A stretch of DNA of 20,000 nt from Asterionella formosa (lineage: Eukaryota), in NCBI GenBank assembly GCA_002256025.1, contig NKIB01012997.1:45953-65952 (forward strand). Reading direction: 5' to 3'. Position 1 is the first letter of the stretch; every line of letters starts with the position of its first letter. The translations under genes were made by a program, and so were the position numbers. Under the pieces are notes generated by a model, which was not told the origin of the DNA, made no database searches, and saw only the letters and a list, made by a program, of their open reading frames with translations. Positions 355 to 18,000 of this stretch are shown here, in pieces.

Positions 355-1663
355 ATGACAAATTGACAAGAAGAAGCTGACAGTTGGGCTGTCATTGACA
401 ATCTTGATTTAGAACAGAAAATACAAGCGGAACAACAGCGCTTTCTGTTACCTGCAGCAGTTGCATTATCATTTTTGGAATCCTATGGACAAAACTCAAA
501 GCCAGTGCAATCAGCAAAATGGGAGCATCAATGACTTGACTGGAATGATCATGTCATAGAGCTTCTCCATGAGAATAGGTTTCATCGTAAATATTGCATG
601 TCTCCAAGCTTTCAATCACTTACTGCAACTACTTCGACCTTCCATCACAGTTGATGCTGTCAAATCAAATGCAAGTTCCGGTTTATACAGCACAAATCAG
701 CATATTTATCCCAAGTTGATTCACGCCATCGGCCTTCACTGGCTTGCAGGCGGAAACCTTATGGACATATGTCATGTCTGTGGAGTTTCTTATCCATCTC
801 TTTATGCAATCACTAAAACATTCCTTGATGCGGTGAACTCTTGGGCAGCATTATCAATAAAATTACCTAAAACAAACAAGGATAAACAAACAGTGATGAA
901 TGGATTCCTTGAAGAAACGAGCATCAACTATTTCATGGATGCATTGGTGCTGTAGAGGATGGATATTTACAGCCTATTGCTAAATCAAGAAAAAGGATTG
1001 TGATGGCTTCCCTCAAGCATATTGGTCTGGGCATTATATGTCATATGGATTGAATGTTCAAGCTGTTTGCGACAGTAATTATTGGTTTTTATACTTTGGT
1101 GTTGTGGCACCAGGAAAATGTCCAGATCAGAAGGCATTTGAAAGAACAAAACTTTTTCAGATTGTATCCAAACTTTGTCCAGGACAATACAAAGTAGATG
1201 ATGCTGATTACACATTGACTGATCAAGTCCTCTGTCCCTTTGTTGGAAATCAAAGGGAATCAACAAACAAAGATGTATACAACTTTTTACTTTCGCAACT
1301 ATGCATTAGAATTGAGATGACATTTGGGTTGGTGGATCCTGATGACATCCTTGTCCTTCAGCCTGAAGAAATCAGTTGCTATTCTTTCTGCTTGAAGCGT
1401 ACACAATTTTTGCCTACTCATGGATGATAATAGAAATAAGAAACTTGCTAATGGATTTGAATTTCTGACTAGTTTGGAGCTTGTTGATTCAATACCAAAT
1501 GCCCCTCTTGAGTGGGCCTTATCTTCCAACTGTCAGGAAATTGGATGTAGTTCAAGGTCCTCAACAAATTCAGCAAATTATTCTTGATGTTGTCACCAAC
1601 AATGGGTTTAGGTGGCCTCCAGCTAATATGTTGCGCCAACAACATGAACTTACTGAAATATGA
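355..1663 (+). pseudogene. Decayed PIF/Harbinger-superfamily DDE transposase (DDE_Tnp_4 / HARBI1-like), broken by stops and frameshifts
   Basis: Joining frames gives LDWNDHV..LLHENRFHRKY.MS..AFNHLLQLL, an HTH-like segment (LHWLAGGNLMDIC...GVSYPSLY), FHGCIGAVEDGYL (first catalytic D, about 932-970), YWSGHYMSYGLNVQAVCD, VAPGKCPD, VDDADY (second D) and IRIEMTFG (E). In-frame TGA stops at 364-366 and 532-534 plus several frameshifts. Start ATG 355 is tentative. Confidence 0.88.
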
Positions 1664-3063: not shown

Positions 3064-4218
3064 TTATGTACTAGCTCGGGCCATGTTTCTATAACCATTG
3101 CCGAGACAACTCAAAAGGACTGTCTTGGTTTCATGATCAGCAAGAATTTTAAACTCCACATTGAATGCCTCCTTGAATAGTCTAAGGGATCCGATGGTAT
3201 ACTGACTTAATGTTCCCAGTCGTACTCTGGCAACATCTTCAGGACCCAAGCACATCAGCATCAAAACGACGGATTGCGCGGACGTGTCCGCGCATCCTCC
3301 TCGACGAATCTCTTCCAGAAGCATGGCGGCACCTCTAGTTCCAATATCCTCTGGAAGTTCAAGTCCTCGTGGTTGATTGGGATCCATGCAACATTCTGCT
3401 GTTATGACAACACCTGTTGTACTTTCTGCTGAGAGAACAAGTCCCAGCCCTGGACTAGGTCCACATGTCTTACTCGAATGAACATCTGTATGAATCCAAA
3501 CATCTGGAAGCATTCTATGCAGAAGACCCTTGGCCGAGTGAGCGACTCGAGCAGCAGAACTAGGCGGAATTTTACAGGTTGTGGCGTTGCCTCGCACTCT
3601 CTTGAACTTGCCAGGATCCAACAAATTCAGAGGCAAAAGTTCCTTGATAATGGGGCAGTAAAATTCGACTCTTCCACCTCCACATGGAGATGCTCCTCGC
3701 TTCGTCACTCGCATGTATGGAGGAGCGGCTTCATCTTCGTGAACACCAACTCCAAAGTGAGCGAGTAAGGGAAGTATAGATCTCTGTAGATAGTCCGGGG
3801 AGGGATCCATTTCGCACGTCCCGTCAGTGATTCCGGTCAATGTCAAGTACAAATGATCTTTTCCGAACATTGCCAGTGGCAAAATACCTTCTAAAAACCA
3901 GCCGACTCCTCGTGCTTTATACAGAGGTTCAACATCCTTGTCAGGAACTGGGCATGCATGTTCTAAATCCCCTCCAAGCAACACGCCTGGCTTGAAGCGC
4001 AACTGAGTTCCAGTCGCGTTGATTTCTATGCTACTACCATTCGTCATACGGTCCAGTAGTCTTAAAAAAGATGCTTCATAGTCTCGAAGTCCTGGATGGT
4101 CAAGATCATCGGATCGAATGTTGCGAATCAACACTGGGCGATTCGAAAGAATGGACACTACGAGGCGCTGGCGAAACTGCACAGCGCCATCATCAAATTT
4201 GAGAGTTGCTCCTGGCAT
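3064..4218 (-). CDS. RCL1: RNA 3'-terminal phosphate cyclase-like protein (18S rRNA biogenesis factor Rcl1), 384 aa, single exon
   Basis: Typical Rcl1 motifs: FRQRLVVSILSNRPVLIRNIRSDD..PGLRDYEASFLRLLD..TNGS.IEINATGT.L.FKPG, LTLTGIT, KRG..P.GGG.V.F, LPDVWIHTD, SPG.GL.L.AESTTG, PEDIG..A..LLEEI..GG..D, C.G.GY.N. It lacks the adenylated catalytic His motif of true RtcA (reads CADTSAQ). Confidence 0.96.
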   Translation of the reverse strand: MPGATLKFDDGAVQFRQRLVVSILSNRPVLIRNIRSDDLDHPGLRDYEASFLRLLDRMTNGSSIEINATGTQLRFKPGVLLGGDLEHACPVPDKDVEPLYKARGVGWFLEGILPLAMFGKDHLYLTLTGITDGTCEMDPSPDYLQRSILPLLAHFGVGVHEDEAAPPYMRVTKRGASPCGGGRVEFYCPIIKELLPLNLLDPGKFKRVRGNATTCKIPPSSAARVAHSAKGLLHRMLPDVWIHTDVHSSKTCGPSPGLGLVLSAESTTGVVITAECCMDPNQPRGLELPEDIGTRGAAMLLEEIRRGGCADTSAQSVVLMLMCLGPEDVARVRLGTLSQYTIGSLRLFKEAFNVEFKILADHETKTVLLSCLGNGYRNMARAST

Positions 4219-4473
4219 GATGAGGGAAATTCGTTTTTCGTTTTATGAATAAAAGGCCAGATGAGATGGATTCGAGTCATTAGATGCAGGGTGGCAGAGA
4301 GTGGTTCATCAAATATTTCTGGGAACACAAATATGGATGCATGTCATGAATATTTTCACGTTGCTCCGCAAAATGTCGTCTTTGCCATTACAAATAACAT
4401 GTTACGGTATACATGCTATTATTTATATATTTATATATGTATGTACGTACGACATCATGCATTCGATTGCCTC

Positions 4474-9950: not shown

Positions 9951-10519
9951 ACTGCAACTTGTGTCAGGCTCCTACAGCGATGTGCATGGTTACAGCAAGC
10001 AGATCATCTATGCTACATAATGATGCAGGTCAAGATTGGGTTCAGCTTTTTCCCTTCTTATTTCGGTCGTTGATTGTGTGGTGATGGAAATTTAATTGCC
10101 TGTGTAAGTACTACAATGTCACAATGCATACATCTCCAATGGAAACTCTTATTTTTTACTTCATTTCTAACCCAAAACAATTTTTTCTATTTCTCATTTG
10201 ATGCTACTGATTACATCCCATTTCATACTTTGGTTGCTCCAAAAATTATGTTCAATTTTCATTGATGTTGCATTTTACAATCATTCTCGTGTGTTTTATG
10301 CTTGTTGTACCATCTCTATACATATTACCGTTATTCTGGCGGCAATTTTATTGCGGAAAAATTCGATGTGCCCCATATTGCCCTTGAATAAAAGTTACTT
10401 AAGAAATTACTTAGAGCCTAAAAATTACTTAAAAAGTACCCGAATGGCAAGACGATAGCTGGAGCGGGAATTGCTGTCATTAACTACCAGCGCGGATGAA
10501 ATCTAACAATTGTGCGCAA

Positions 10520-13270
10520 CTAGTAATTAAGCCGAAGCCATTGACTTGATGGGACGTTCCTCTTCAATGATCCGTCATCGTACAAAATGTCCACATTTCC
10601 ACTTGGCATGACCTTTTTAACCAACCCTGGATACAGGACGCCGCTTTCTCCGTAGTCGGCTGTTACCAAAGCACCCTCTTCTAATGGCCTATACCTTCGA
10701 ATGATGTCCATAGAAACCTGGCCTTGCGTCTCACCGTCTTCATAATTCACTTGGCAAGTCTCTCCGTCTAATCCGCCAATACTGCCTCGGAACCATTGGC
10801 CTTTGCCGTCATAGTTAACAGCCACAGTCTCGCCTGTGATCAATGAAGCAGGTGGTAGTGGAGGATGCCTCCATCGATGATGCTGATATGTGTAAGGCTC
10901 CACCGTCGGAATCTGTCTCTGGGGAATGATTTGAACACTCGATTTCACTTTAAATTCAGGTTGCCTGGGAACCAATGGCATGGCTGCGATATTTTTGTCT
11001 GCCGATTCAAACAAGAGCTTTCTCCATGTGAGCAAGTTGTCACGAGATTTGTAACCAAGTATAGTGTGCCGAACAGGAGCATCAAATCTATAGTGAGCCA
11101 GTTGCAACGATATGCATTTGTGTAGAGCTCTCAAGAAGTCCTTGGACGCGAGATTCAGTACAAGGCCCACGTGTTTTTTTGTGTCGCTTTCAGTAAGACG
11201 CCTCCATTGGCCATTTCTCCAATCTTGCTCAAGGAAACGTCCTCTGGTTGTCTCCAATATCGAATCGGTGAGTGTCTCCAAAAAAATATCTGGAAGTCCC
11301 ACAAACGACTTGACGAACGGTGCATAATGTGCGATGGCTAAACGAAAGGCGGCATTTCCAGGGTGATAGTCCAACCATCGATCATAAGCTCCAAGAAAAT
11401 AAGAATCAAATCTACTTCCAATCAAAACGTCTTCTTTTTCTGGCAAAGTGGTGGGGCCCGTTGACAGCGAAAGGTCTTCCATTTCCATTACTTCGACGTC
11501 AAATGGTTCGTTCAAAATTCTTCCGAGCTTGACATCTTGCCCCCAACGACTGAACTCGATTCGCCGTTGGACTCGATACAAGACCAATGCTGGAAAAACG
11601 TGTGTGAAGGCGAGCCCAAGGAAAGCGCGAGTGATATGTCTTCGTTTTCGGGTTTTAAAACTGACTAACAAGATAGCAACTCCATAAGTCGATAAAACAA
11701 CAAGATTGATAATTTCCAAAATAATGAGACAATTTTTCGTTGTGTCGCGAAGATACGTTTCCCACGCACGATTGTTCTTCAAAACGGGTCCTTGCAAAAG
11801 TTTCGGAATTCCAATCCTATCAATTACAGTGTCGATGAAATCAGGTAGCTCACTCCAATGGACTCCCATCTGACCGTTGGCCATACGCATCATTGCGGAG
11901 GTCACAAGATCGTAGCCCCAGTTGCGATTCTTTGGTTTCCATAGTCCAAGACACCTTAGGATTGAAAAATGCTTAACCATGCTTCGTTGAGCATCAAACA
12001 AGTCTGCCCAGGTATGACCCCACATATTCCATTTCATGTGAAAATAGGTCCCTCTCGACAATTGTCGAGGATCTATTCCATGCTGCGGTCTGCCAATAAA
12101 TGATACAATGAAAAGGATACGCTCCAATGAGTTCGGGTCGGAATGTTTATACCCGCGATGCCAAATTTGCTGGTTCAACAATGCGGCATCTCCCGCGTGC
12201 CAAAGCTTGTCTGATGCTGCTGCATTCAGCTGTATTCCATTTTCTGCGCACATGACATCCAGCCAATTAGCACAATAATGAGTGCCAGGACAAAGCTCAG
12301 TAGCTCCCATTGCCGATGAGGTGTCTTGCAAAGCAACGAACATAGAGTATGAATGCGAGAATGTCCGAGCAAATTTTATCCCATTGCCATCTGGCTTGAC
12401 ATCGGGATGCCAAGATTGATGTGTTGCACCGAATCTAGCAGTGATTGCAGTGATCTCCGTGACTGCGGGGTCTGAACCGACCAGGCCTTCAATCAAGGGT
12501 TGAAGAGTTGGATTCGTGGCAATTTCCCTCAAGGCAATAGGAACAATGGGATCTTCTGTCGCATCAATACCAAAGCTGACTCGAGTGTTGCCTTCGCCTT
12601 GAGAAACAAAGATTTCGTCTTCCTCAGTCAGTTCAGCATTTCGTCGTACAATGAATTTTCGAAGTGCTTCAACAGTGCTAGGCTTCAATACTTGAGGAAT
12701 CATTGCCGCTCCATGTTTCATCATGGTATCAACAGCTTGAACCGGTGTGGTGCCATTCGTAAGGAGCAAATCTTGCAGGTTGCGTGTCGACAAGTCATTC
12801 GCGGTACACGCTCGTTCATAGTACGTATACTCCGACTGAAGACGAACATCCGAAGCAGCTCTACCAGCCGATTTAATAATGTGCACAAAATACTCCTTGT
12901 AGAGATGTTGTGCATGATAGGTACAAAGAAGGATTAAAAACAGTGCTGCCAACGGAAGATCCAGAATGAGAACTCTTAAAATGGAACCTGCTCGCTGCAA
13001 TCGCCTTCCGGATGGCGACGATAGCTTGTCATTTACGTCGTTTGTGATACCATTGACTGTCGTTTCTCGGATTTGCTCTCTGAATGCAAAGCCTCTTGTT
13101 GTGAATGTCGGCTGAAAAGGGACGGACGGAAAGGGACAATGGTCGGCATTGGGCTCAATTGATGCTGTTGCAATCAAAAAGCGACGCAGCAAATCCAAAT
13201 CGCTTCGTTGTTGAAGATCCACTGCCTCTGTCAGTCCTTCGACTGAGTGGTGTCCTGAAGTGCCGTTCAT
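10520..13270 (-). CDS. 916-aa multidomain membrane protein: TM - PhyH-like 2OG-Fe(II) dioxygenase - 2 TM - DUF6824-like - tandem Tudor-like domains
   Basis: Uninterrupted 2.75-kb ORF. Hydrophobic helix VLILDLPLAALFLILLCTY. PhyH motifs KHGAAMIPQVL, QSWHPD (HxD, 12401-12412), FVALQD...MGATELCPGTH, GDAALLNQQIWHRG (distal His 12158-12160) and ERILF. Two further hydrophobic segments flank KTRKRRHITR. EDVLIG...HPGNAAFR...GRFLEQD...W is DUF6824-like. Two C-terminal repeats follow the pattern G..V...Y...G..(F/Y).G.......(V/I).Y(E/D)DG. Confidence 0.9.
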   Translation of the reverse strand: MNGTSGHHSVEGLTEAVDLQQRSDLDLLRRFLIATASIEPNADHCPFPSVPFQPTFTTRGFAFREQIRETTVNGITNDVNDKLSSPSGRRLQRAGSILRVLILDLPLAALFLILLCTYHAQHLYKEYFVHIIKSAGRAASDVRLQSEYTYYERACTANDLSTRNLQDLLLTNGTTPVQAVDTMMKHGAAMIPQVLKPSTVEALRKFIVRRNAELTEEDEIFVSQGEGNTRVSFGIDATEDPIVPIALREIATNPTLQPLIEGLVGSDPAVTEITAITARFGATHQSWHPDVKPDGNGIKFARTFSHSYSMFVALQDTSSAMGATELCPGTHYCANWLDVMCAENGIQLNAAASDKLWHAGDAALLNQQIWHRGYKHSDPNSLERILFIVSFIGRPQHGIDPRQLSRGTYFHMKWNMWGHTWADLFDAQRSMVKHFSILRCLGLWKPKNRNWGYDLVTSAMMRMANGQMGVHWSELPDFIDTVIDRIGIPKLLQGPVLKNNRAWETYLRDTTKNCLIILEIINLVVLSTYGVAILLVSFKTRKRRHITRAFLGLAFTHVFPALVLYRVQRRIEFSRWGQDVKLGRILNEPFDVEVMEMEDLSLSTGPTTLPEKEDVLIGSRFDSYFLGAYDRWLDYHPGNAAFRLAIAHYAPFVKSFVGLPDIFLETLTDSILETTRGRFLEQDWRNGQWRRLTESDTKKHVGLVLNLASKDFLRALHKCISLQLAHYRFDAPVRHTILGYKSRDNLLTWRKLLFESADKNIAAMPLVPRQPEFKVKSSVQIIPQRQIPTVEPYTYQHHRWRHPPLPPASLITGETVAVNYDGKGQWFRGSIGGLDGETCQVNYEDGETQGQVSMDIIRRYRPLEEGALVTADYGESGVLYPGLVKKVMPSGNVDILYDDGSLKRNVPSSQWLRLNY

Positions 13271-13569
13271 TATAATGTAATAGGCGAACGAGTTTCACTA
13301 TTTTCCGGCATTCGAACTTTGTAAAATCTGTTGTGGCATCAAATGTGAAATATTCTATTTGATATTTCTTTCTTATGTGTAATAAAATATATTTCGGTAC
13401 AGATACTGGAGAATGATTTAAAACTACATATGGAAATTACAATAACAGTGCATGTGTTCATATCCAGACATGAGGATACAAAGTGCTGCTCTTGTTGTGC
13501 TATGTAGGCGTGCGTTGTGTTCGGTTTTCGGTCGTACCCCCACCGCCTATATTACAGCCAATAAACACA
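13271..13569. promoter_or_regulatory. Probable bidirectional promoter region (299 bp) between divergent genes
   Basis: Head-to-head starts at 13270 (-) and 13570 (+), with an AT-rich core at about 13345-13445. No specific sites were identified. Confidence 0.5.
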
Positions 13570-14403
13570 ATGATGTACTATATATGGCTAATTGTATCTC
13601 TTGTATTCCTTTGGGTGCCGTACGGATCATGTCAATCTGCTGCGGGTCAAGAGACCCTGGTCGGTATAGTCGGTAGAAATTTCGTCGTCTTGGGAGCTGA
13701 TTCTTCTGTGTCCACATCTATCGCCTTCACTGCCAGCGATCTTGACAAGATTGCAATTTTGGACGGCCAGGCGACGATTGCAGCAGCCGCAGCTGGTGAT
13801 GCTGCTGATTCGGATCGGCTGTTGGGTATTCTAAGTGCTCATTGCGCGATTCGAGAATACGAAGAAGGCGGCGAGGTTGACTTTTATATGATGAACGAAA
13901 ACGACAAACTTCCGGAGCGCCCAATTGGCTTGACGGTGCAGGAGGTGGCTCATTTAGCACGAAACCAAATAGCTTCTTCTCTTCGGTCCAGATCTCAACT
14001 GAAGGTATGCCTGCTGATTGCCGGAATGATGAAAAGCGAAGGAATAGAACCAGAATCATTTAGCAAAAGGCTGCAATCGCAAGCTTCAGGCAACACTGGT
14101 ACTGCAAGTATTACATCGTTGATAACAAATGATGTCACTACTTCAGCTTCACTCAGGCCGCATTTATTTTGGCTAGATCCCTATGGCAGTCTGCAAAAGG
14201 TACAGTATGGCGCACATGGTCACGGTGCCAACTTTATGCTCTCCATCTTGGACCAGTCCTACCAACCTGATTTGAGCCAGGAGGAGGCTATACAAATTGT
14301 TCGTGATTGCTTCGATCAGCTTCGGATACGATATGTTATCAACACGCCGCAGCCTCCTTGTATCAAATGTATTGACAAGGACGGATGCCGTTTGATACGT
14401 TAG
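13570..14403 (+). CDS. 20S proteasome beta subunit, beta-4 / PSMB2 (Pre1)-like, with N-terminal signal peptide and two insertions (277 aa)
   Basis: ETLVGIVGRNFVVLGAD, DLDKI, GDAADSDR, AHLARNQIASSLRSR, VCLLIAG, PHLFWLD.YGSLQKVQYGAHGHGANFMLSILD..Y.PDLSQEEAI, LRIRYVIN and IDKDG all match the PSMB2 pattern. The first ATG is 13570 (the track start is GTG). MMYYIWLIVSLVFLWVPYGSC precedes the fold. Confidence 0.9.
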   Translation: MMYYIWLIVSLVFLWVPYGSCQSAAGQETLVGIVGRNFVVLGADSSVSTSIAFTASDLDKIAILDGQATIAAAAAGDAADSDRLLGILSAHCAIREYEEGGEVDFYMMNENDKLPERPIGLTVQEVAHLARNQIASSLRSRSQLKVCLLIAGMMKSEGIEPESFSKRLQSQASGNTGTASITSLITNDVTTSASLRPHLFWLDPYGSLQKVQYGAHGHGANFMLSILDQSYQPDLSQEEAIQIVRDCFDQLRIRYVINTPQPPCIKCIDKDGCRLIR

Positions 14404-14539: not shown

Positions 14540-15043
14540 CTAGGTCGATTTCTTTTGTCGCTTTCGCGTTGTGGAGACTTGTGATGGCTCCCCTGTGACA
14601 TCGCCTACATCTCGTTTCTTTGGTACAGGGTGTACAACTGACTTCTCCTTTATTGAGTGAAACCGCTTTTGTAGTTCCACCTGAACCTTTTCTGGCAGTT
14701 TTTCCCATCCCACAAGCTCGTTTATGGTCTCCAATTTTATAGTCTCTGGATATTCCCATGCACATGAAGATCCATGAAAATAGGTTGATTGCTTACAGCC
14801 CTTGTGGCACTGAAGGAACAATCGTAACCGAAGTTGGCCTTTGCAGATTGGGTCATGGCACTGACGACATTTGGATCGACTGGAGGGACTCATATCAACC
14901 TCTGCGTCATGGGGAGTATCAGCCCATGTCTTTCTAGCAAACGGCATTGTCAAATCATCTTTGGACTCAAACCGCTTGAGTTTTAAATGCAAGTAGCGTC
15001 CAGAAGGATCGCGGGGCAACATGTCTCCCGGATTCGTTTTCAT
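14540..15043 (-). CDS. Small protein with a single PARP-type zinc finger (zf-PARP) and basic C-terminus (167 aa)
   Basis: AEVDMSPSSRSKCRQC..PICKGQLRL...YFHGSSC...INELVGWEKLPEKVQ.EL matches the zf-PARP pattern, including the GW..L...Q helix. KKR...RKRQKK is NLS-like. The first ATG is at 15043 (the track start at 15109 is GTG). Confidence 0.85.
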   Translation of the reverse strand: MKTNPGDMLPRDPSGRYLHLKLKRFESKDDLTMPFARKTWADTPHDAEVDMSPSSRSKCRQCHDPICKGQLRLRLFLQCHKGCKQSTYFHGSSCAWEYPETIKLETINELVGWEKLPEKVQVELQKRFHSIKEKSVVHPVPKKRDVGDVTGEPSQVSTTRKRQKKST

Positions 15044-18000
15044 GGTTGGAAGATATGGGTTACAAAGTCCTTTCCTCTGATGCTCTGTGTTATTTGGCAA
15101 AAGCCTCACTATACTGCTTCGCTATAGTATGCTGCTTGGATGTCCTCTTGGATCAGTAAAATGCAAATATAAGGAACGAGTTGAATGGTATTGTACCGCC
15201 AAGAAGGATGATAGAGTATTTGCACTCGACATCATAAACCATCGCTAATAGAGAAGCCATCGTGAGGAGTGTCACGAGGATTGCGGACTCGATTACACTC
15301 CAACTAATCGAATCATGTGTGGCCATGCCAATCCTCAGCTGGCTAACGAGACCAAAGATTGAAGACTTCTATAGAGATCGAATTCCATTCTATTAAGTGG
15401 AAATTCGAGGATACTCTTAGAATGCCTTGTAAGAAGCAAATGATTCATAGGTCACTTATTTGAGAATTAGCAATTGGCTGAGTAAGCCGTGATAATTGAG
15501 AGGAAGGTCAATTAGTTTATCTAGCAGGAAGGCTAGCAGAAAAAGTAAGAGGTAATCCCTCTGTCCAATAACAGTTACATCGATAATAGAAATTTCTCCG
15601 GGTCCATTTGGACTGCTACGATTTTCTCTGGCTTCATTACCCAATTGTGTGGATTGCCCTAGTAAACTACAGATCCATGTATTAGTATGCCAGTATACAA
15701 TAAAACGAAAGCAGGTGAAAGAGTGCTGAGTCACATGGGTTCAAGATCCCCTTCATGTTATAAAAATATGTGATCATTGTAGCTATGCAGCTCCCTATTC
15801 TGGATGGTGGATTGTTCTTCTGCTGAGTCCCCATACAAGAACCTGTTTCTGGCCTTCCAACAATCAGTGCTGTACTTGCACATTTGTGCCACCAATTTTG
15901 TGCCCCGAAGTCGTGGAACCACCTATAAAAATTATTACAATAATTGTGAAAAATTATTGCAAAAATTATCACAAGCATAGAATTAGGTAAAAAAATAAAT
16001 CTAGAATTTATTTTGGAAGCATAAAATTCGGGCGCACCAGTGCACCAAAAATGGAAATTCAGTTGATCGCTCATAGAAACCATTTGAGCATCAAAATTAT
16101 ATCTTTAAGTGTTGTAATTTATGTCTTAGACTATTGAGAACACCGTTGTGAAGTTTGCTTTCTTATAATGCTTTGCACTAGGCGCACTTGTCATCATGTG
16201 TAGATAGGATTCAGATACCAAGCAAGCAAGGGGCTTCTATTATTTTTTGGCCTCCTTCAGAATTGAGATTTTTTATTACAATCCCCTATTTGTTCTCCCA
16301 ATTTGATAACAAGATGTTGGAGATGTGGAAAGAGCACAAATCATTTCTGAATCAACATCTGTGGGCAGCCATGCAGCAGTGTATCTGGCTATAATCACGT
16401 CTGCAAATAGAATGTATCAAATTTATAAGATCATAGGTATTGTACGATAACTGGCACAGATTTTTCGCTGCATGATACATATTTCGTTATTTGTATGTTA
16501 AATGGTGCATACTATAAGTAAGATCATGTTAAGCATACTTGTATTAACCGATACACCACGATATTATCAAAACGTTATCCTATGATGTACATTCTTTCAT
16601 CATCTATCTATCTTAAAATATTGGTAATTCAAATCGAAATCACTATTAAAATAGGTTGAAATGTTTTGTAGTTTTCTGCTATATCTAGAAATGATTTTTA
16701 TGTTTCTATATTCTGCGCGGTTGAACACCAGCCAATGCTCCCTTTTTCTATTGTCTTATTGATCCTGATGTATGCCTCTCAACTCCCTTGAGGATGCATG
16801 CCTCCCCCCGCCACCCTTCAATGATCTTGATGCATGCCTCCTGCCTCCCGTTCAATCTGATTCTGAAACTCATCTGACTGCCTTGTGCCTTTGCCCTTTC
16901 CATTTGCTCCGATTCTGAATTCGCAGGCGCTATTCAATTGCTTTGTCCACTTTGATTTTCTAGTCACACTACCAATCAGAAGGAATTACTTGCAGTTAGC
17001 CATCTTTTGTTCAAACCTCAACACTGTAGTCCCATTTTATCATGCTACACTTACCAGAAATCGATGAACTTTCGCATAATTATGTAAAACTGTGTCAGTC
17101 GAATATCGCATAAGTACACATCAAAGATTGTTCCACCAATGTCATTGATTACTTACAGCAAAACGGTTTGATTACAATTATCCTAAAAGATTAAAACACG
17201 CGTGTGTCAGTATGTTCTAACAGTTGTGCATTGTTCCAACTACTAGAGCACTTACCAATTAGATTTTGTCAACATTGGTGTTTTCCCAATGAATGCAAAA
17301 TGAGCTATTAAATTGCTAGAAATGGAAGAAATCATTTAGTATTGTTTGTGAACCCAACAATCGATCAACCTGACATGTGCTGCCCTTGACATGCCATACT
17401 AGGTAGATTCCATTCACTTTTACATTTTCACCCCTTCTCAGCCGCAACGTTAATCATTGTGCTGTAGCTTCAATTCAGTTTTCCTTGTCATGTGGTTGAT
17501 GTGAACTCTCATTTCAGGATGAGTTACCGGTATGCATGACAATGAACCTTTAGATATGATTTCAAATGTATTAGCCATGTATACATATATAAAAATTTAT
17601 AAAAGGATAAATATATACAATACAGTTTGAAAAGTTTCATAGATCAAAGACAATCTTGTTTATATCTCACATCATGTTTATAATATCATCCGTAAGAGGA
17701 TATCGTTTTTCCACTATCTGAGGTACAATTTTCCCGTATTAAATCTTGTACCTACTACTACAAGTAAGTGATTTAATAAACACCTCAATTAACGGTAGTA
17801 GAATGAATGTCATGCTGACATTTTCGAGATATTGGAACTACGAAGAAAAAATTAATGTTCTAAATAATGCATCCAACTCAAAAGTTTGATTACCTTTTCG
17901 ATAAGTGATCAGGGCATTCCAAGCAGCAACCTGATAGATTGAATTCGCTCACAATGATTGAATCGAATCTGTGGTGTCGAGAATTCCAGTATCCACCAAT

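What the first reader, a model, noticed from the sequence alone, without database searches (positions are those of the whole stretch)
10520..13270. Membrane-anchored 2OG-Fe(II) dioxygenase fused to DUF6824-like and tandem Tudor-like domains
Seen: one intact ORF with a complete HxD...H iron triad and a downstream Arg, three hydrophobic segments, a DUF6824-like domain (about 11440-11170) and two Tudor-like repeats with aromatic residues (about 10840-10530). Established: PhyH-family enzymes are hydroxylases, Tudor domains often bind methyl-Lys/Arg, and DUF6824 is uncharacterised and common in diatoms. Inference: this could be an enzyme-plus-reader module, such as a hydroxylase/demethylase or an O2/Fe/2OG sensor, tethered to a membrane. 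I know of no functional description of this architecture. Basic residues before TM1 and in the KTRKRRHITR loop suggest the enzyme, and the C-terminal domains if TM3 is real, face the non-cytosolic side, which is unexpected for Tudor domains.
Basis: partly seen in the sequence, partly recalled or inferred. Interest (0 to 1): 0.7.

Follow-up and report, generated by a model that had tools for sequence, protein, structure and literature searches.

The report
Diatom membrane hydroxylase with Tudor readers
A conserved, expressed diatom gene encodes a membrane-embedded iron/2-oxoglutarate hydroxylase joined to two methyl-mark-reading Tudor domains, an undescribed combination that may modify methylated proteins inside the secretory pathway.

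Summary
Window 10520..13270 (-) is one intact 916-aa ORF. RNA contigs cover it colinearly, with no intron.

- **Catalytic domain.** It is a PhyH-type Fe(II)/2OG dioxygenase: Pfam 26.9 bits against a cut-off of 22; AF2 pLDDT 94.4; Z 20.3 to AsqJ and 15.7 to human PHYH. H288, D290, H371 and R384 are invariant.
- **Membrane segments.** Three hydrophobic, non-amphipathic helices recur across the family.
- **C-terminal half.** It holds a DUF6824-type domain (32 of 51 relatives; the query itself is sub-threshold) and a tandem Tudor (family profile against the KDM4A Tudor, E 5e-6; Foldseek 2e-5; Z 9.5).
- **Distribution.** The whole architecture is kept in at least 80 full-length relatives. All 11 named source organisms are diatoms.
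- **Topology.** Charge bias, four invariant cysteines and a positionally conserved N-x-S/T sequon place the enzyme on the non-cytosolic side. If TM3 spans the membrane, the Tudor module is on that side too.

My best reading, at about 0.4 confidence, is a reader-guided hydroxylase acting in the secretory-pathway lumen. The boldest reading is that it makes the trimethyl-delta-hydroxylysine of silaffins. No paper on this family was found. Its function is untested.

The parts
10520..13270 (-). Complete single-exon ORF, 916 aa plus stop (P0001)
   Evidence: colinear RNA contigs with no joint inside the ORF
10442..13355 (-). Outer limits of the RNA contigs that cover the gene (X6 from 10442, X3 to 13355); approximate transcript extent
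   Evidence: table 8, records 7, 14, 29
12983..13270 (-). Poorly conserved N-terminal tail, aa 1-96, basic just before TM1; inferred cytosolic
   Evidence: family mean K+R 2.9 against D+E 0.42 in the 15 residues before TM1
12914..12982 (-). TM1 / signal anchor, aa 97-119, with conserved R99, D104, P106, F111
11735..12913 (-). PhyH-type Fe(II)/2OG dioxygenase domain with family-specific N- and C-terminal extensions, aa 120-512
   Evidence: Pfam PhyH 26.9 bits at aa 185-374; AF2 pLDDT 94.4, pTM 0.93; Foldseek E 1.2e-12; Z 20.3 to AsqJ
12401..12409 (-). H288-P-D290, first two iron ligands
   Evidence: invariant in 51/51 and in the 103-row alignment
12158..12160 (-). H371, distal iron ligand
   Evidence: invariant
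12119..12121 (-). R384, inferred binder of the 2OG C5 carboxylate
   Evidence: invariant in 51/51; its role is inferred from the PhyH family pattern (recalled)
12752..12760 (-). N171-G-T sequon in a variable loop; candidate N-glycosylation site
   Evidence: a sequon occurs within aa 160-184 in 36/51 (A1) and 53/103 (A3); all other 25-aa windows of the domain are <= 14/103 except one near aa 316 (37-38/103)
12248..12292 (-). C327-x5-C333-x7-C341 cluster; with C155 (12806-12808) this makes four conserved cysteines
   Evidence: 51/51, 50/51, 51/51 and 51/51 for C155, C327, C333 and C341
11657..11731 (-). TM2, aa 514-538, with conserved N522 and Y529
11636..11656 (-). Basic loop KTRKRRH, aa 539-545; inferred cytosolic
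   Evidence: family mean K+R 4.16 against D+E 0.44; loop length 4-33 aa
11570..11635 (-). TM3, aa 546-567; moderately hydrophobic, non-amphipathic, with the conserved R-L-x-x-T-H-G motif (G at the R position in the query)
10991..11563 (-). Alpha/beta domain containing the DUF6824 match, aa 570-760 (Pfam match at aa 635-703 = 11162-11368); invariant D614, R620, H636, N639
10847..10990 (-). Low-confidence linker, aa 761-808
   Evidence: pLDDT 54-60
10691..10846 (-). Tudor barrel 1, aa 809-860; cage-position residues Y820, W826/F827, Y843, D845
10523..10690 (-). Tudor barrel 2, aa 861-916; cage-position residues Y873, Y880, Y897, D899

Best explanation
The gene encodes a diatom-specific three-pass membrane protein.

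Shown: the ORF is intact and lies on one colinear RNA contig. It has a PhyH-fold Fe(II)/2OG dioxygenase domain with a complete, invariant H-x-D...H...R site. Three hydrophobic helices are conserved across the family. A DUF6824-type domain and two Tudor barrels follow on the same polypeptide.

Inferred topology: the N-terminus is in the cytosol and TM1 acts as a signal anchor. The dioxygenase sits in the lumen of the secretory pathway (ER, Golgi or a derived compartment). TM2 and TM3 form a tight hairpin around a basic cytosolic loop. The DUF6824 and tandem-Tudor module then returns to the same non-cytosolic side as the enzyme.

Inferred mechanism: the Tudor barrels, which keep aromatic-cage and Asp positions, dock a methylated Lys or Arg on a secretory or cell-wall protein. 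The tethered dioxygenase uses O2 and 2OG to hydroxylate a nearby side chain. This is the logic of KDM4A (oxygenase plus Tudor), but with a PhyH-type catalytic domain and in a membrane-bound, lumenal setting.
For: Gene and transcript.

Active-looking enzyme: Pfam PhyH above the cut-off in the query and at E <= 1e-3 in 43 of 51 relatives. AF2 pLDDT 94.4. Z 20.3 with rmsd 3.6 over 242 aa to AsqJ, Z 20.1 to KanJ, 16.7 to PHYHD1 and 15.7 to PHYH. H288, D290, H371 and R384 are invariant.

Reader: the family profile hits the KDM4A double Tudor at E 5e-6. Foldseek gives ADCP1 tandem Agenet at 2e-5, and also SETDB1, 53BP1 and SGF29. Single barrels give Z 9.5 with rmsd 1.0 over 49 aa to MTF2 and Z 9.3 to PHF19. 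The tandem gives Z 7.6 over 103 aa to 53BP1.

Cage positions that are aromatic, out of 51: 820 in 33, 826 in 44, 827 in 38, 843 in 38, 873 in 26, 880 in 32, 897 in 47. Asp is present at 845 in 35 and at 899 in 41.

Topology: K+R/D+E is 2.9/0.42 before TM1, 1.64/1.6 after TM1, 1.94/1.74 before TM2 and 4.16/0.44 in the loop (n = 50). TM3 is not amphipathic (mean moment 0.16, like TM1 at 0.11 and TM2 at 0.15; 0 of 50 above the surface-seeking line) and follows loops as short as 4-5 residues. The enzyme domain has a sequon hotspot (36/51; 53/103) and four invariant Cys.

Conservation of the whole architecture: 81 of the 82 hits have E <= 3.4e-61 and most cover >= 85% of the query. There are 388 cluster representatives at E <= 1e-30. 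MMETSP transcripts marked complete carry both PhyH and DUF6824 (P0050).
Against: No Tudor or DUF6824 domain is known to me outside the nucleus or cytosol (recalled).

The C-terminal module has no conserved cysteine and no sequon hotspot (at most 6 of 51, and only in the linker). Its sequon density is below shuffled expectation: 0.18 against 0.44 per 100 aa in the DUF6824 domain and 0.05 against 0.24 in the Tudor region. That gives no positive sign of lumenal exposure.

TM3 is only marginally hydrophobic: KD >= 1.5 in 30 of 50, mean Eisenberg H 0.56 against 0.72 for TM1 and TM2.

The closest solved enzymes all act on small molecules, not proteins.

The cage positions are not universally aromatic (26-47 of 51).

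The query's own Tudor and DUF6824 scores are sub-threshold.

The four cysteines could form a Zn site, which would be compatible with a cytosolic location; I could not inspect model coordinates.
Confidence: 0.4

Rival explanations
1. Split across the membrane (two true TM helices). The dioxygenase is lumenal, but the segment called TM3 does not span, so the DUF6824 and tandem-Tudor module is cytosolic or nucleoplasmic. The protein would then work like the lamin B receptor: a membrane enzyme whose Tudor tail tethers methylated chromatin, or a methylated cytosolic protein or RNP, to the ER or nuclear envelope. It might also relay the lumenal O2/2OG/Fe state.
For: Every solved match of the reader module is a nuclear or cytoplasmic methyl-mark reader. 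These include the LBR Tudor (Z 8.8, rmsd 2.8, 61 aa), KDM4A, 53BP1, SETDB1, SGF29 and ADCP1. TM3 is the weakest helix. The flank after TM3 is still net basic (2.12 against 0.88). There is no conserved Cys and no sequon hotspot in the C-terminal module.
Against: TM3 is non-amphipathic (moment 0.16; 0 of 50 above the surface line), so it does not look like an in-plane helix. Loops of 4-5 residues after TM2 in some relatives leave little room for anything but a hairpin. TM3 carries a conserved polar motif (R552 in 43/51, T556 in 26/51, H557 in 32/51, G558 in 31/51), typical of a packed membrane helix. An enzyme and a reader on opposite sides could not cooperate on one substrate.
Confidence: 0.25
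2. A small-molecule or lipid oxygenase. The PhyH domain hydroxylates a metabolite such as a lipid, a polyamine or a free amino acid (for example free trimethyl-lysine) at the membrane. The DUF6824 and Tudor module would only localise, regulate or oligomerise the enzyme.
For: All top structural neighbours are small-molecule enzymes: DhiD, AsqJ, AndA, TlxIJ, PrhA, KanJ, FtmOx1, EasH, a free-proline hydroxylase, PHYHD1, PHYH and EctD. The nearest feature clusters in the ESM Atlas are bacterial PhyH proteins (score 0.94). Membrane embedding with conserved polar residues in the TM helices would suit a lipid substrate.
Against: A tandem Tudor with preserved cage and Asp positions, fused in essentially all full-length relatives, argues that a methylated macromolecule is part of the reaction or of its targeting. 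The catalytic domain has about 100 extra, highly conserved residues (aa ~410-512, many invariant W/Y/F/R) not covered by the solved small-molecule enzymes (aligned range aa 163-458). Its substrate site may therefore differ.
Confidence: 0.2
3. Inverted topology. The N-terminus is lumenal, while the dioxygenase and the Tudor module both face the cytosol or nucleoplasm. The protein would be a membrane-tethered, chromatin- or RNP-directed hydroxylase or demethylase at the ER or nuclear envelope.
For: This puts enzyme and reader together in the compartment where Tudor substrates are known. Oxygenase-plus-reader fusions for chromatin do exist in diatoms: JmjC-MBT and JmjC-chromo are listed in PMC3145265 (passages seen).
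Against: It violates the positive-inside bias at two independent places (before TM1 and in the TM2-TM3 loop). It requires translocating an N-terminal tail with no signal peptide, whose TM1 begins at residue 30 to 267 across relatives. It leaves the conserved sequon hotspot and the cysteine quartet of the enzyme domain unexplained. As far as I recall, no PhyH-type enzyme is a known demethylase.
Confidence: 0.1

Closest known systems
Phytanoyl-CoA dioxygenase (PhyH, PF05721) family of Fe(II)/2OG oxygenases: AsqJ, KanJ, AndA, EasH, PHYHD1, human PHYH, EctD
   Same: The double-stranded beta-helix fold (Z 20.3 down to 15.4), the H-x-D...H triad with a downstream Arg, and a Pfam score above the gathering cut-off.
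   Different: Those enzymes are soluble, about 250-310 aa, and act on small molecules. This domain is about 390 aa, with family-specific extensions (aa 120-162 and about 459-512 lie outside the aligned ranges). It is flanked by TM helices, carries four invariant Cys and a conserved sequon, and is fused to reader domains.
KDM4A/JMJD2A (JmjC demethylase with a C-terminal double Tudor)
   Same: A 2OG oxygenase and a tandem Tudor on one polypeptide. The KDM4A Tudor is the best sequence-profile match in the PDB (E 5e-6, about 100 aligned residues).
   Different: The catalytic domain here is PhyH, not JmjC/JmjN. KDM4A is soluble and nuclear, and its Tudors are interdigitated (recalled). The model here has two separate five-stranded barrels that superpose better on 53BP1.
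53BP1, ADCP1/AGDP1, SGF29 and SETDB1 tandem Tudor/Agenet readers
   Same: The tandem SH3-like barrels (Foldseek E 2e-5 to 6e-4; TM-score on target up to 0.53). Aromatic and Asp residues sit at the positions that form the 53BP1 cage (the mapping to 53BP1 is recalled; counts are).
   Different: Those proteins are soluble chromatin readers. None is fused to a dioxygenase of this type or to TM helices.
Lamin B receptor (Tudor plus a multi-pass membrane enzyme at the inner nuclear membrane)
   Same: A Tudor domain and a membrane-embedded enzyme in one protein. The LBR Tudor matches barrel 1 (Z 8.8).
   Different: In LBR the Tudor is N-terminal and single, and the enzyme is an 8-TM sterol reductase (recalled). 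There is no 2OG oxygenase.
Membrane-anchored lumenal 2OG oxygenases (P4H-TM, plant type II prolyl 4-hydroxylases) and lysyl hydroxylases (PLOD, JMJD6)
   Same: An inferred N-in signal anchor followed by a lumenal Fe/2OG enzyme, and the proposed chemistry (side-chain hydroxylation of proteins).
   Different: They belong to a different subfamily: the prolyl hydroxylases score lower than the PhyH enzymes (Z 11.7-14.9, ranks 24-49), and PLOD and JMJD6 are not among the 50 rows shown. None of them has a Tudor or DUF6824 domain or a second TM hairpin.

Membership tests
PhyH (PF05721) Fe(II)/2OG dioxygenase | Pfam HMM score above the gathering cut-off | tested here: met
   26.9 bits against a cut-off of 22, aa 185-374; 43 of 51 relatives match at E <= 1e-3
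PhyH (PF05721) Fe(II)/2OG dioxygenase | Double-stranded beta-helix fold close to solved family members | tested here: met
   AF2 pLDDT 94.4, pTM 0.93; Foldseek E 1.2e-12; Z 20.3, rmsd 3.6, 242 aa to AsqJ; Z 15.7 to human PHYH
PhyH (PF05721) Fe(II)/2OG dioxygenase | H-x-D/E...H iron triad and a basic residue for the 2OG C5 carboxylate | tested here: met
   H288, D290, H371 and R384 are invariant in 51/51; H288, D290 and H371 are invariant and R384 nearly so in 103 rows. The role of R384 is inferred.
PhyH (PF05721) Fe(II)/2OG dioxygenase | 2OG-dependent turnover | not testable with these tools
   Needs a succinate/CO2 release assay on recombinant protein
Tudor / Agenet (royal family) tandem reader | Significant profile match | tested here: met
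   At family level: the profile of 51 sequences against the KDM4A Tudor gives E 4.9e-6. Individual relatives pass the Pfam cut-offs for TUDOR, Agenet, Tudor_3 and PTM_DIR17_Tudor. The query alone does not: no Tudor family at E <= 10 and a best PDB E of 0.17.
Tudor / Agenet (royal family) tandem reader | Two SH3-like five-stranded barrels | tested here: met
   AF2 of aa 570-916, pLDDT 87.7, with the barrels at 91-97; Foldseek E 2e-5, probability 1.00; Z 9.5, rmsd 1.0, 49 aa to MTF2; Z 7.6, rmsd 3.8, 103 aa to 53BP1
Tudor / Agenet (royal family) tandem reader | Aromatic cage | tested here: inconclusive
   The query has Y820, F827, Y843, D845 and Y873, Y880, Y897, D899. These positions are aromatic in 26-47 of 51 relatives and Asp in 35 and 41 of 51. 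The mapping to known cages rests on the printed KDM4A alignment plus recalled residue numbers. No coordinates were inspected.
Tudor / Agenet (royal family) tandem reader | Binding of methyl-Lys or methyl-Arg | not testable with these tools
   Needs peptide arrays or ITC
DUF6824 (PF20710) | Pfam HMM score above the gathering cut-off (27 bits) | tested here: inconclusive
   The query scores 14.4 bits, E 0.053. The aligned region matches at E <= 1e-3 in 32 of 51 relatives and reaches >= 27 bits in 4 of the 13 scanned singly. The nearest Atlas clusters are DUF6824 at scores 0.86-0.87, which count as a lead only.
DUF6824 (PF20710) | Known fold or function | not tested
   The fold searches were filled by the Tudor part (model residues 239-347), so aa 570-760 was barely tested.
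KDM4/JMJD2 demethylases | JmjC catalytic domain | tested here: not met
   The only catalytic-domain family found is PhyH, and the best structural matches are PhyH-type enzymes
Lamin B receptor type | Sterol-reductase multi-pass domain | tested here: not met
   Only three hydrophobic segments and no such Pfam match
Type II membrane-anchored lumenal 2OG oxygenases (P4H-TM-like) | N-in signal anchor with a lumenal catalytic domain | tested here: inconclusive
   Charge bias, sequon hotspot and Cys quartet fit this arrangement, but no dedicated topology predictor was run and there is no experiment. Prolyl 4-hydroxylases match at lower Z (11.7-14.9) than the PhyH enzymes.

The most novel reading that the evidence does not exclude
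This family may be the missing lumenal hydroxylase of diatom biosilica proteins. On this reading the tandem Tudor recognises the di- or trimethyl-lysines of silaffin-like proteins in the ER, Golgi or silica deposition vesicle. The tethered PhyH domain then hydroxylates the delta carbon, producing the epsilon-N,N,N-trimethyl-delta-hydroxylysine that is characteristic of diatom cell walls and is later phosphorylated.

Four points are consistent with this:
- All 11 named source organisms are diatoms.
- The enzyme domain bears lumenal hallmarks.

A chromatin-type domain family, the diatom-specific SET methyltransferases (BacSETs), is already reported to be co-expressed with cell-wall formation genes (Seminavis preprint, passages seen). 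I know of no enzyme assigned to this hydroxylation (recalled), and my searches found none.
Probability: 0.17. Interest if true: 0.9.

Novelty: new variant of a known kind. Interest (0 to 1): 0.6.

Why it matters
Every domain here is of a known kind. The combination was not found described: a PhyH-type oxygenase held between membrane helices and fused to DUF6824 and a tandem methyl-mark reader, probably facing the lumen. It is also widespread in diatoms, with 388 cluster representatives at E <= 1e-30.

It would also give a concrete, clonable candidate for one of the unusual lysine modifications of diatom silica-forming proteins. Trimethyl-hydroxylysine was found in diatom walls in 1970 (reference list of PMC4557024), and I know of no enzyme assigned to it.

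If instead the Tudor tail is nucleoplasmic, the protein would be an LBR-like chromatin tether carrying an oxygen-dependent enzyme in the perinuclear lumen, which would also be new.

Either outcome can be tested directly in Phaeodactylum, which has a single named orthologue, XP_002179312.1.

Tried and rejected
1. Domain contact (complex prediction, enzyme domain against C-terminal module). I ran this to ask whether the two parts touch and therefore lie on the same side. The result was 'no answer': score 0.00, my alignments were not used and the controls were not run. It says nothing either way.

2. The window's own genome is not held, so I could not count paralogues in this organism.

3. Stand-alone short enzymes. 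One search listed 44 shorter proteins. Of the 11 I aligned, the 8 without extra tail sequence stop at the same place, K-W-N-M-W417, three of them followed by Y-V or Y-V-K. That is what an intron-naive ORF call gives at a splice donor, so I read them as first exons of intron-containing orthologues and not as a separate short family. The window's gene has no intron there.

4. Stand-alone DUF6824 relatives. I looked for these to learn which compartment the domain normally occupies. The search returned only 5 fragments of this same family.

5. Fold of the DUF6824-containing domain (aa 570-760). I therefore make no claim that its fold is new.

6. KDM4A-like interdigitated hybrid Tudor. The sequence profile matches best, but the model shows two separate barrels, so I rejected it as the structural type.

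7. TM3 as an amphipathic in-plane helix. The hydrophobic moment does not support this.

8. Coupling between TM1 and TM3. R99 and D104 change together within TM1, but no clear coupling to R552 or H557 was seen. I do not use this.

9. Rfam and tRNA scans of the window found nothing.

10. Literature. There were zero hits for DUF6824, for the Phaeodactylum accessions, for the Seminavis and Fistulifera gene names, and for 'Tudor domain' + diatom + biosilica. The one paper holding diatom + Tudor + phytanoyl-CoA dioxygenase (PMC2938197, passages seen) does not describe this fusion. In one search, 66 papers held at least two of the three terms; none of the 15 listed held all three, and none of their titles or abstract starts concerns this family. 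Nemoto et al. 2020 is not held, so only its title was seen, in a reference list.

11. Earlier notes of this scan: none at this place or on this sequence.

Full report
**1. The observation**

The window holds one ATG-to-stop ORF at 10520..13270 on the minus strand, encoding 916 aa. The stop-to-stop frame reaches 13294.

Four RNA libraries from two studies hold the gene, three of them poly(A)-selected and one cDNA-based. Single contigs lie colinearly on it at 10495-13265 (X2), 10466-13355 (X3) and 10442-13250 (X6). In X4 two contigs abut at 11596/11600. No joint falls inside the ORF.

In three of the four runs the contigs stop in the 200-300 bases between this gene and the divergent neighbour. 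In X4 one contig runs on to 13554. This fits transcripts better than contaminating DNA, although contigs cannot prove transcription. The gene is therefore single-exon and, on these contigs, covered end to end by single RNA assemblies.

- the H288-P-D290...H371...R384 site;
- three hydrophobic segments at aa 97-119, 514-538 and 546-567;
- the KTRKRRH loop;
- a weak DUF6824 match at aa 635-703 (14.4 bits, E 0.053);
- two repeats rich in aromatic residues at aa 809-916.

**2. Relatives**

A word-indexed search gave 82 proteins at E <= 1e-3. Of these, 81 have E <= 3.4e-61, and most are 880-1000 aa long and cover >= 85% of the query. An exhaustive HMMER search gave 1275 cluster representatives at E <= 1e-3, 746 at <= 1e-10 and 388 at <= 1e-30.

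Every record that names an organism is a diatom: Fragilaria crotonensis, Phaeodactylum tricornutum, a Bacillariaceae sp., Seminavis robusta, Fistulifera solaris, Cylindrotheca fusiformis, Nitzschia inconspicua, Epithemia clementina (two genes three locus tags apart), Thalassiosira exigua, Stauroneis constricta and Entomoneis sp..

MMETSP transcripts marked complete carry PhyH and DUF6824 together (P0050), so the fusion is transcribed as one unit in other species too.

The shorter proteins found are not a stand-alone enzyme family. Of the 11 I aligned, the 8 without extra tail sequence end at the same residue, W417, three of them followed by Y-V or Y-V-K. That is what an ORF caller produces at an intron.

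**3. The enzyme domain**

Pfam PhyH scores 26.9 bits in the query against a cut-off of 22, and 43 of 51 relatives match at E <= 1e-3.

AlphaFold2 on aa 120-512 with 103 sequences gave pLDDT 94.4 and pTM 0.93. Foldseek matched DhiD (E 1.2e-12), AsqJ, AndA, TlxIJ, PrhA, KanJ and FtmOx1. The Foldseek-independent search gave these Z-scores:

| Solved enzyme | Z | Detail |
|---|---|---|
| AsqJ | 20.3 | rmsd 3.6, 242 aa, query aa 163-458 |
| KanJ | 20.1 | |
| PHYHD1 | 16.7 | |
| human PHYH | 15.7 | |
| EctD | 15.4 | |
| SyrB2 | 15.0 | |

H288, D290, H371 and R384 are invariant, so the domain looks catalytically competent. The domain is far better conserved than the rest of the protein: identity to the query is 35-81% over this domain against 20-51% over the C-terminal third.

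It has about 100 extra conserved residues after the core, many of them invariant W, Y, F, H or R. The ends of these extensions (aa 120-162 and about 459-512) lie outside the aligned ranges of the best solved matches. All close solved relatives act on small molecules, so the structural matches do not tell us the substrate.

**4. The C-terminal half**

AlphaFold2 on aa 570-916 with 87 sequences gave pLDDT 87.7 and pTM 0.80. The model has an alpha/beta domain (aa 570-760), a low-confidence linker, and two five-stranded barrels.

*Tudor barrels.*
- The family profile hits the KDM4A double Tudor at E 4.9e-6 over about 100 residues. Tandem Agenet proteins, ARID4A/B, KDM4B/C, PHF20, SGF29 and UHRF1 follow.
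- Foldseek gave ADCP1 tandem Agenet at 2e-5, then SETDB1, 53BP1, SGF29, BAHCC1 and FMRP.
- Single barrels gave Z 9.5 (rmsd 1.0, 49 aa) to MTF2, 9.3 to PHF19, 8.9 to SMN and 8.8 to the lamin B receptor Tudor.
- The pair gave Z 7.6 (rmsd 3.8, 103 aa) to 53BP1.

The tandem Tudor call is therefore sound at family and structural level, even though the query alone is not significant.

The residues at the positions that form the cage in KDM4A and 53BP1 (residue numbers recalled; alignment printed) are Y820, F827, Y843, D845 in barrel 1 and Y873, Y880, Y897, D899 in barrel 2. Across 51 relatives these positions are aromatic in 26-47 and Asp in 35 and 41. The cage is mostly kept, but not universally.

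*DUF6824.* Thirty-two of 51 relatives match at E <= 1e-3, and D614, R620, H636 and N639 are invariant. The Atlas neighbours are small diatom DUF6824 proteins (0.86-0.87, a lead only). Here the corresponding stretch reads I-G-S-R, so this is a divergent member. The fold of this domain was not tested, because Tudor matches filled both lists.

**5. Topology**

In 50 relatives, the 15 residues before TM1 hold a mean of 2.9 K+R against 0.42 D+E, and the TM2-TM3 loop holds 4.16 against 0.44. The two flanks on the enzyme side are neutral (1.64/1.60 and 1.94/1.74). This places the N-terminus and the loop in the cytosol and the enzyme outside it.

Two further signs agree with that:
- Four cysteines of the enzyme domain are conserved in 50-51 of 51 relatives.
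- A variable loop (aa 160-184) carries an N-x-S/T sequon in 36 of 51 relatives (A1) and 53 of 103 (A3). The sequon takes many forms (NGT, NST, NTT, NET, NRT, NMT, NAS and others). Every other 25-aa window of the domain has at most 14 of 103, except one near aa 316 with 37-38 of 103.

The rows are related, so these counts are not independent events, and the cysteines could instead bind zinc.

TM3 is the weak point. KD reaches >= 1.5 in only 30 of 50, though >= 1.0 in 49 of 50. However:
- Its hydrophobic moment is as low as that of TM1 and TM2 (0.16 against 0.11 and 0.15; none of 50 above the surface-seeking line).
- It follows TM2 after as few as 4-5 residues in some relatives.
- It carries a conserved polar motif, R-L-x-x-T-H-G.

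I read TM2 and TM3 as a hairpin, which puts the Tudor module on the same non-cytosolic side as the enzyme. My estimates are about 0.7 for a lumenal enzyme and about 0.65 for TM3 spanning.

Against this reading, the C-terminal module has no conserved cysteine and no sequon hotspot, and I know of no lumenal Tudor. The contact test gave no answer.

**6. Mechanism**

The reading I commit to, at about 0.4, is a three-pass membrane protein with its PhyH hydroxylase and its methyl-mark reader on the same lumenal side. The Tudor pair docks a methylated residue of a secretory or cell-wall protein, and the enzyme hydroxylates a nearby side chain.

The rivals are:
- a split arrangement with a lumenal enzyme and a cytosolic or nucleoplasmic, LBR-like Tudor tether (0.25);
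- a small-molecule or lipid substrate, with the tail serving only for targeting (0.2);
- an inverted, wholly cytosolic topology (0.1).

The second rival concerns the substrate rather than the topology, so it can hold together with any of the other three readings.

**7. The bold reading**

[quoted passage not shown] These proteins mature in the secretory pathway.

A lumenal dioxygenase tied to a methyl-lysine reader and confined, as far as names show, to diatoms is what one would design for that step. Diatom-specific SET methyltransferases are already linked by co-expression to wall formation (Seminavis preprint, passages seen; only the title of Nemoto et al. 2020 was seen).

I found no paper that names a hydroxylase for this modification, but subscription journals are largely outside the library. 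I put this reading at about 0.17.

**8. Novelty**

The components are known kinds. Oxygenase-plus-Tudor fusions exist (KDM4), as do membrane-anchored lumenal 2OG oxygenases (P4H-TM; recalled).

The PhyH type, the TM hairpin, DUF6824 and the probable lumenal reader together make a new variant. No description was found in print.

The supplements of the Seminavis preprint were closed. They may hold the expression phase of the orthologue Sro1975_g308800.

Noticed in passing
window 10405-10476 (core 10434-10476), just downstream of the gene's stop codon: A stretch of about 43-70 bases has depths of hundreds to thousands in all four RNA runs. Contigs that share it continue into unrelated sequence on either side (tables 2, 7, 8). 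It looks like an element shared by many abundant transcripts or a dispersed repeat. It occurs once in the window and matches no Rfam family or tRNA.
   Followed up: partly
window 13570-14403 (+): A divergently oriented proteasome subunit gene (Pfam Proteasome, E 1.7e-24) starts 300 bases from the ATG of the dioxygenase gene. It is covered by its own RNA contigs. A 237-aa ORF call from another assembly (P0266) carries the proteasome family and also matches part of the dioxygenase, which hints that the two genes are neighbours in a relative too.
   Followed up: no
relatives P0108-P0262, aligned at query residue W417 (window about 12018-12020): Many orthologues from other assemblies are called as 340-480-aa proteins that end at K-W-N-M-W, some followed by Y-V. 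This fits an intron at this codon in those species. The window's gene has none.
   Followed up: partly
Epithemia clementina records KAL7569915.1 / KAL7569914.1 (ACA910_008578) and ACA910_008581 (P0062): Two family members lie three locus tags apart on one 1.28-Mb contig, so the family has tandem paralogues in at least one diatom.
   Followed up: no
window 3064-4242 (-), 14540-15121 (-), 984-1427 (+): Other ORFs in the window: an RNA 3'-terminal phosphate cyclase (E 1.4e-41); an ORF with a zf-PARP-like match just under the cut-off (37.5 against 39.3 bits); and a DDE_Tnp_4 transposase fragment (E 2.8e-14).
   Followed up: no
window 10034-10099: RNA contigs of two runs (X3, X6) replace 64 bases with 22 other letters (tables 5 and 5c). 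This is probably an allelic or strain difference in the intergenic region.
   Followed up: no
TM1, aa 99 and 104 (window about 12959-12976): R99 and D104, five residues apart inside the first membrane helix, change together in relatives: R/D becomes F/H in four sequences. This suggests an intra-helix or inter-helix charge pair.
   Followed up: partly
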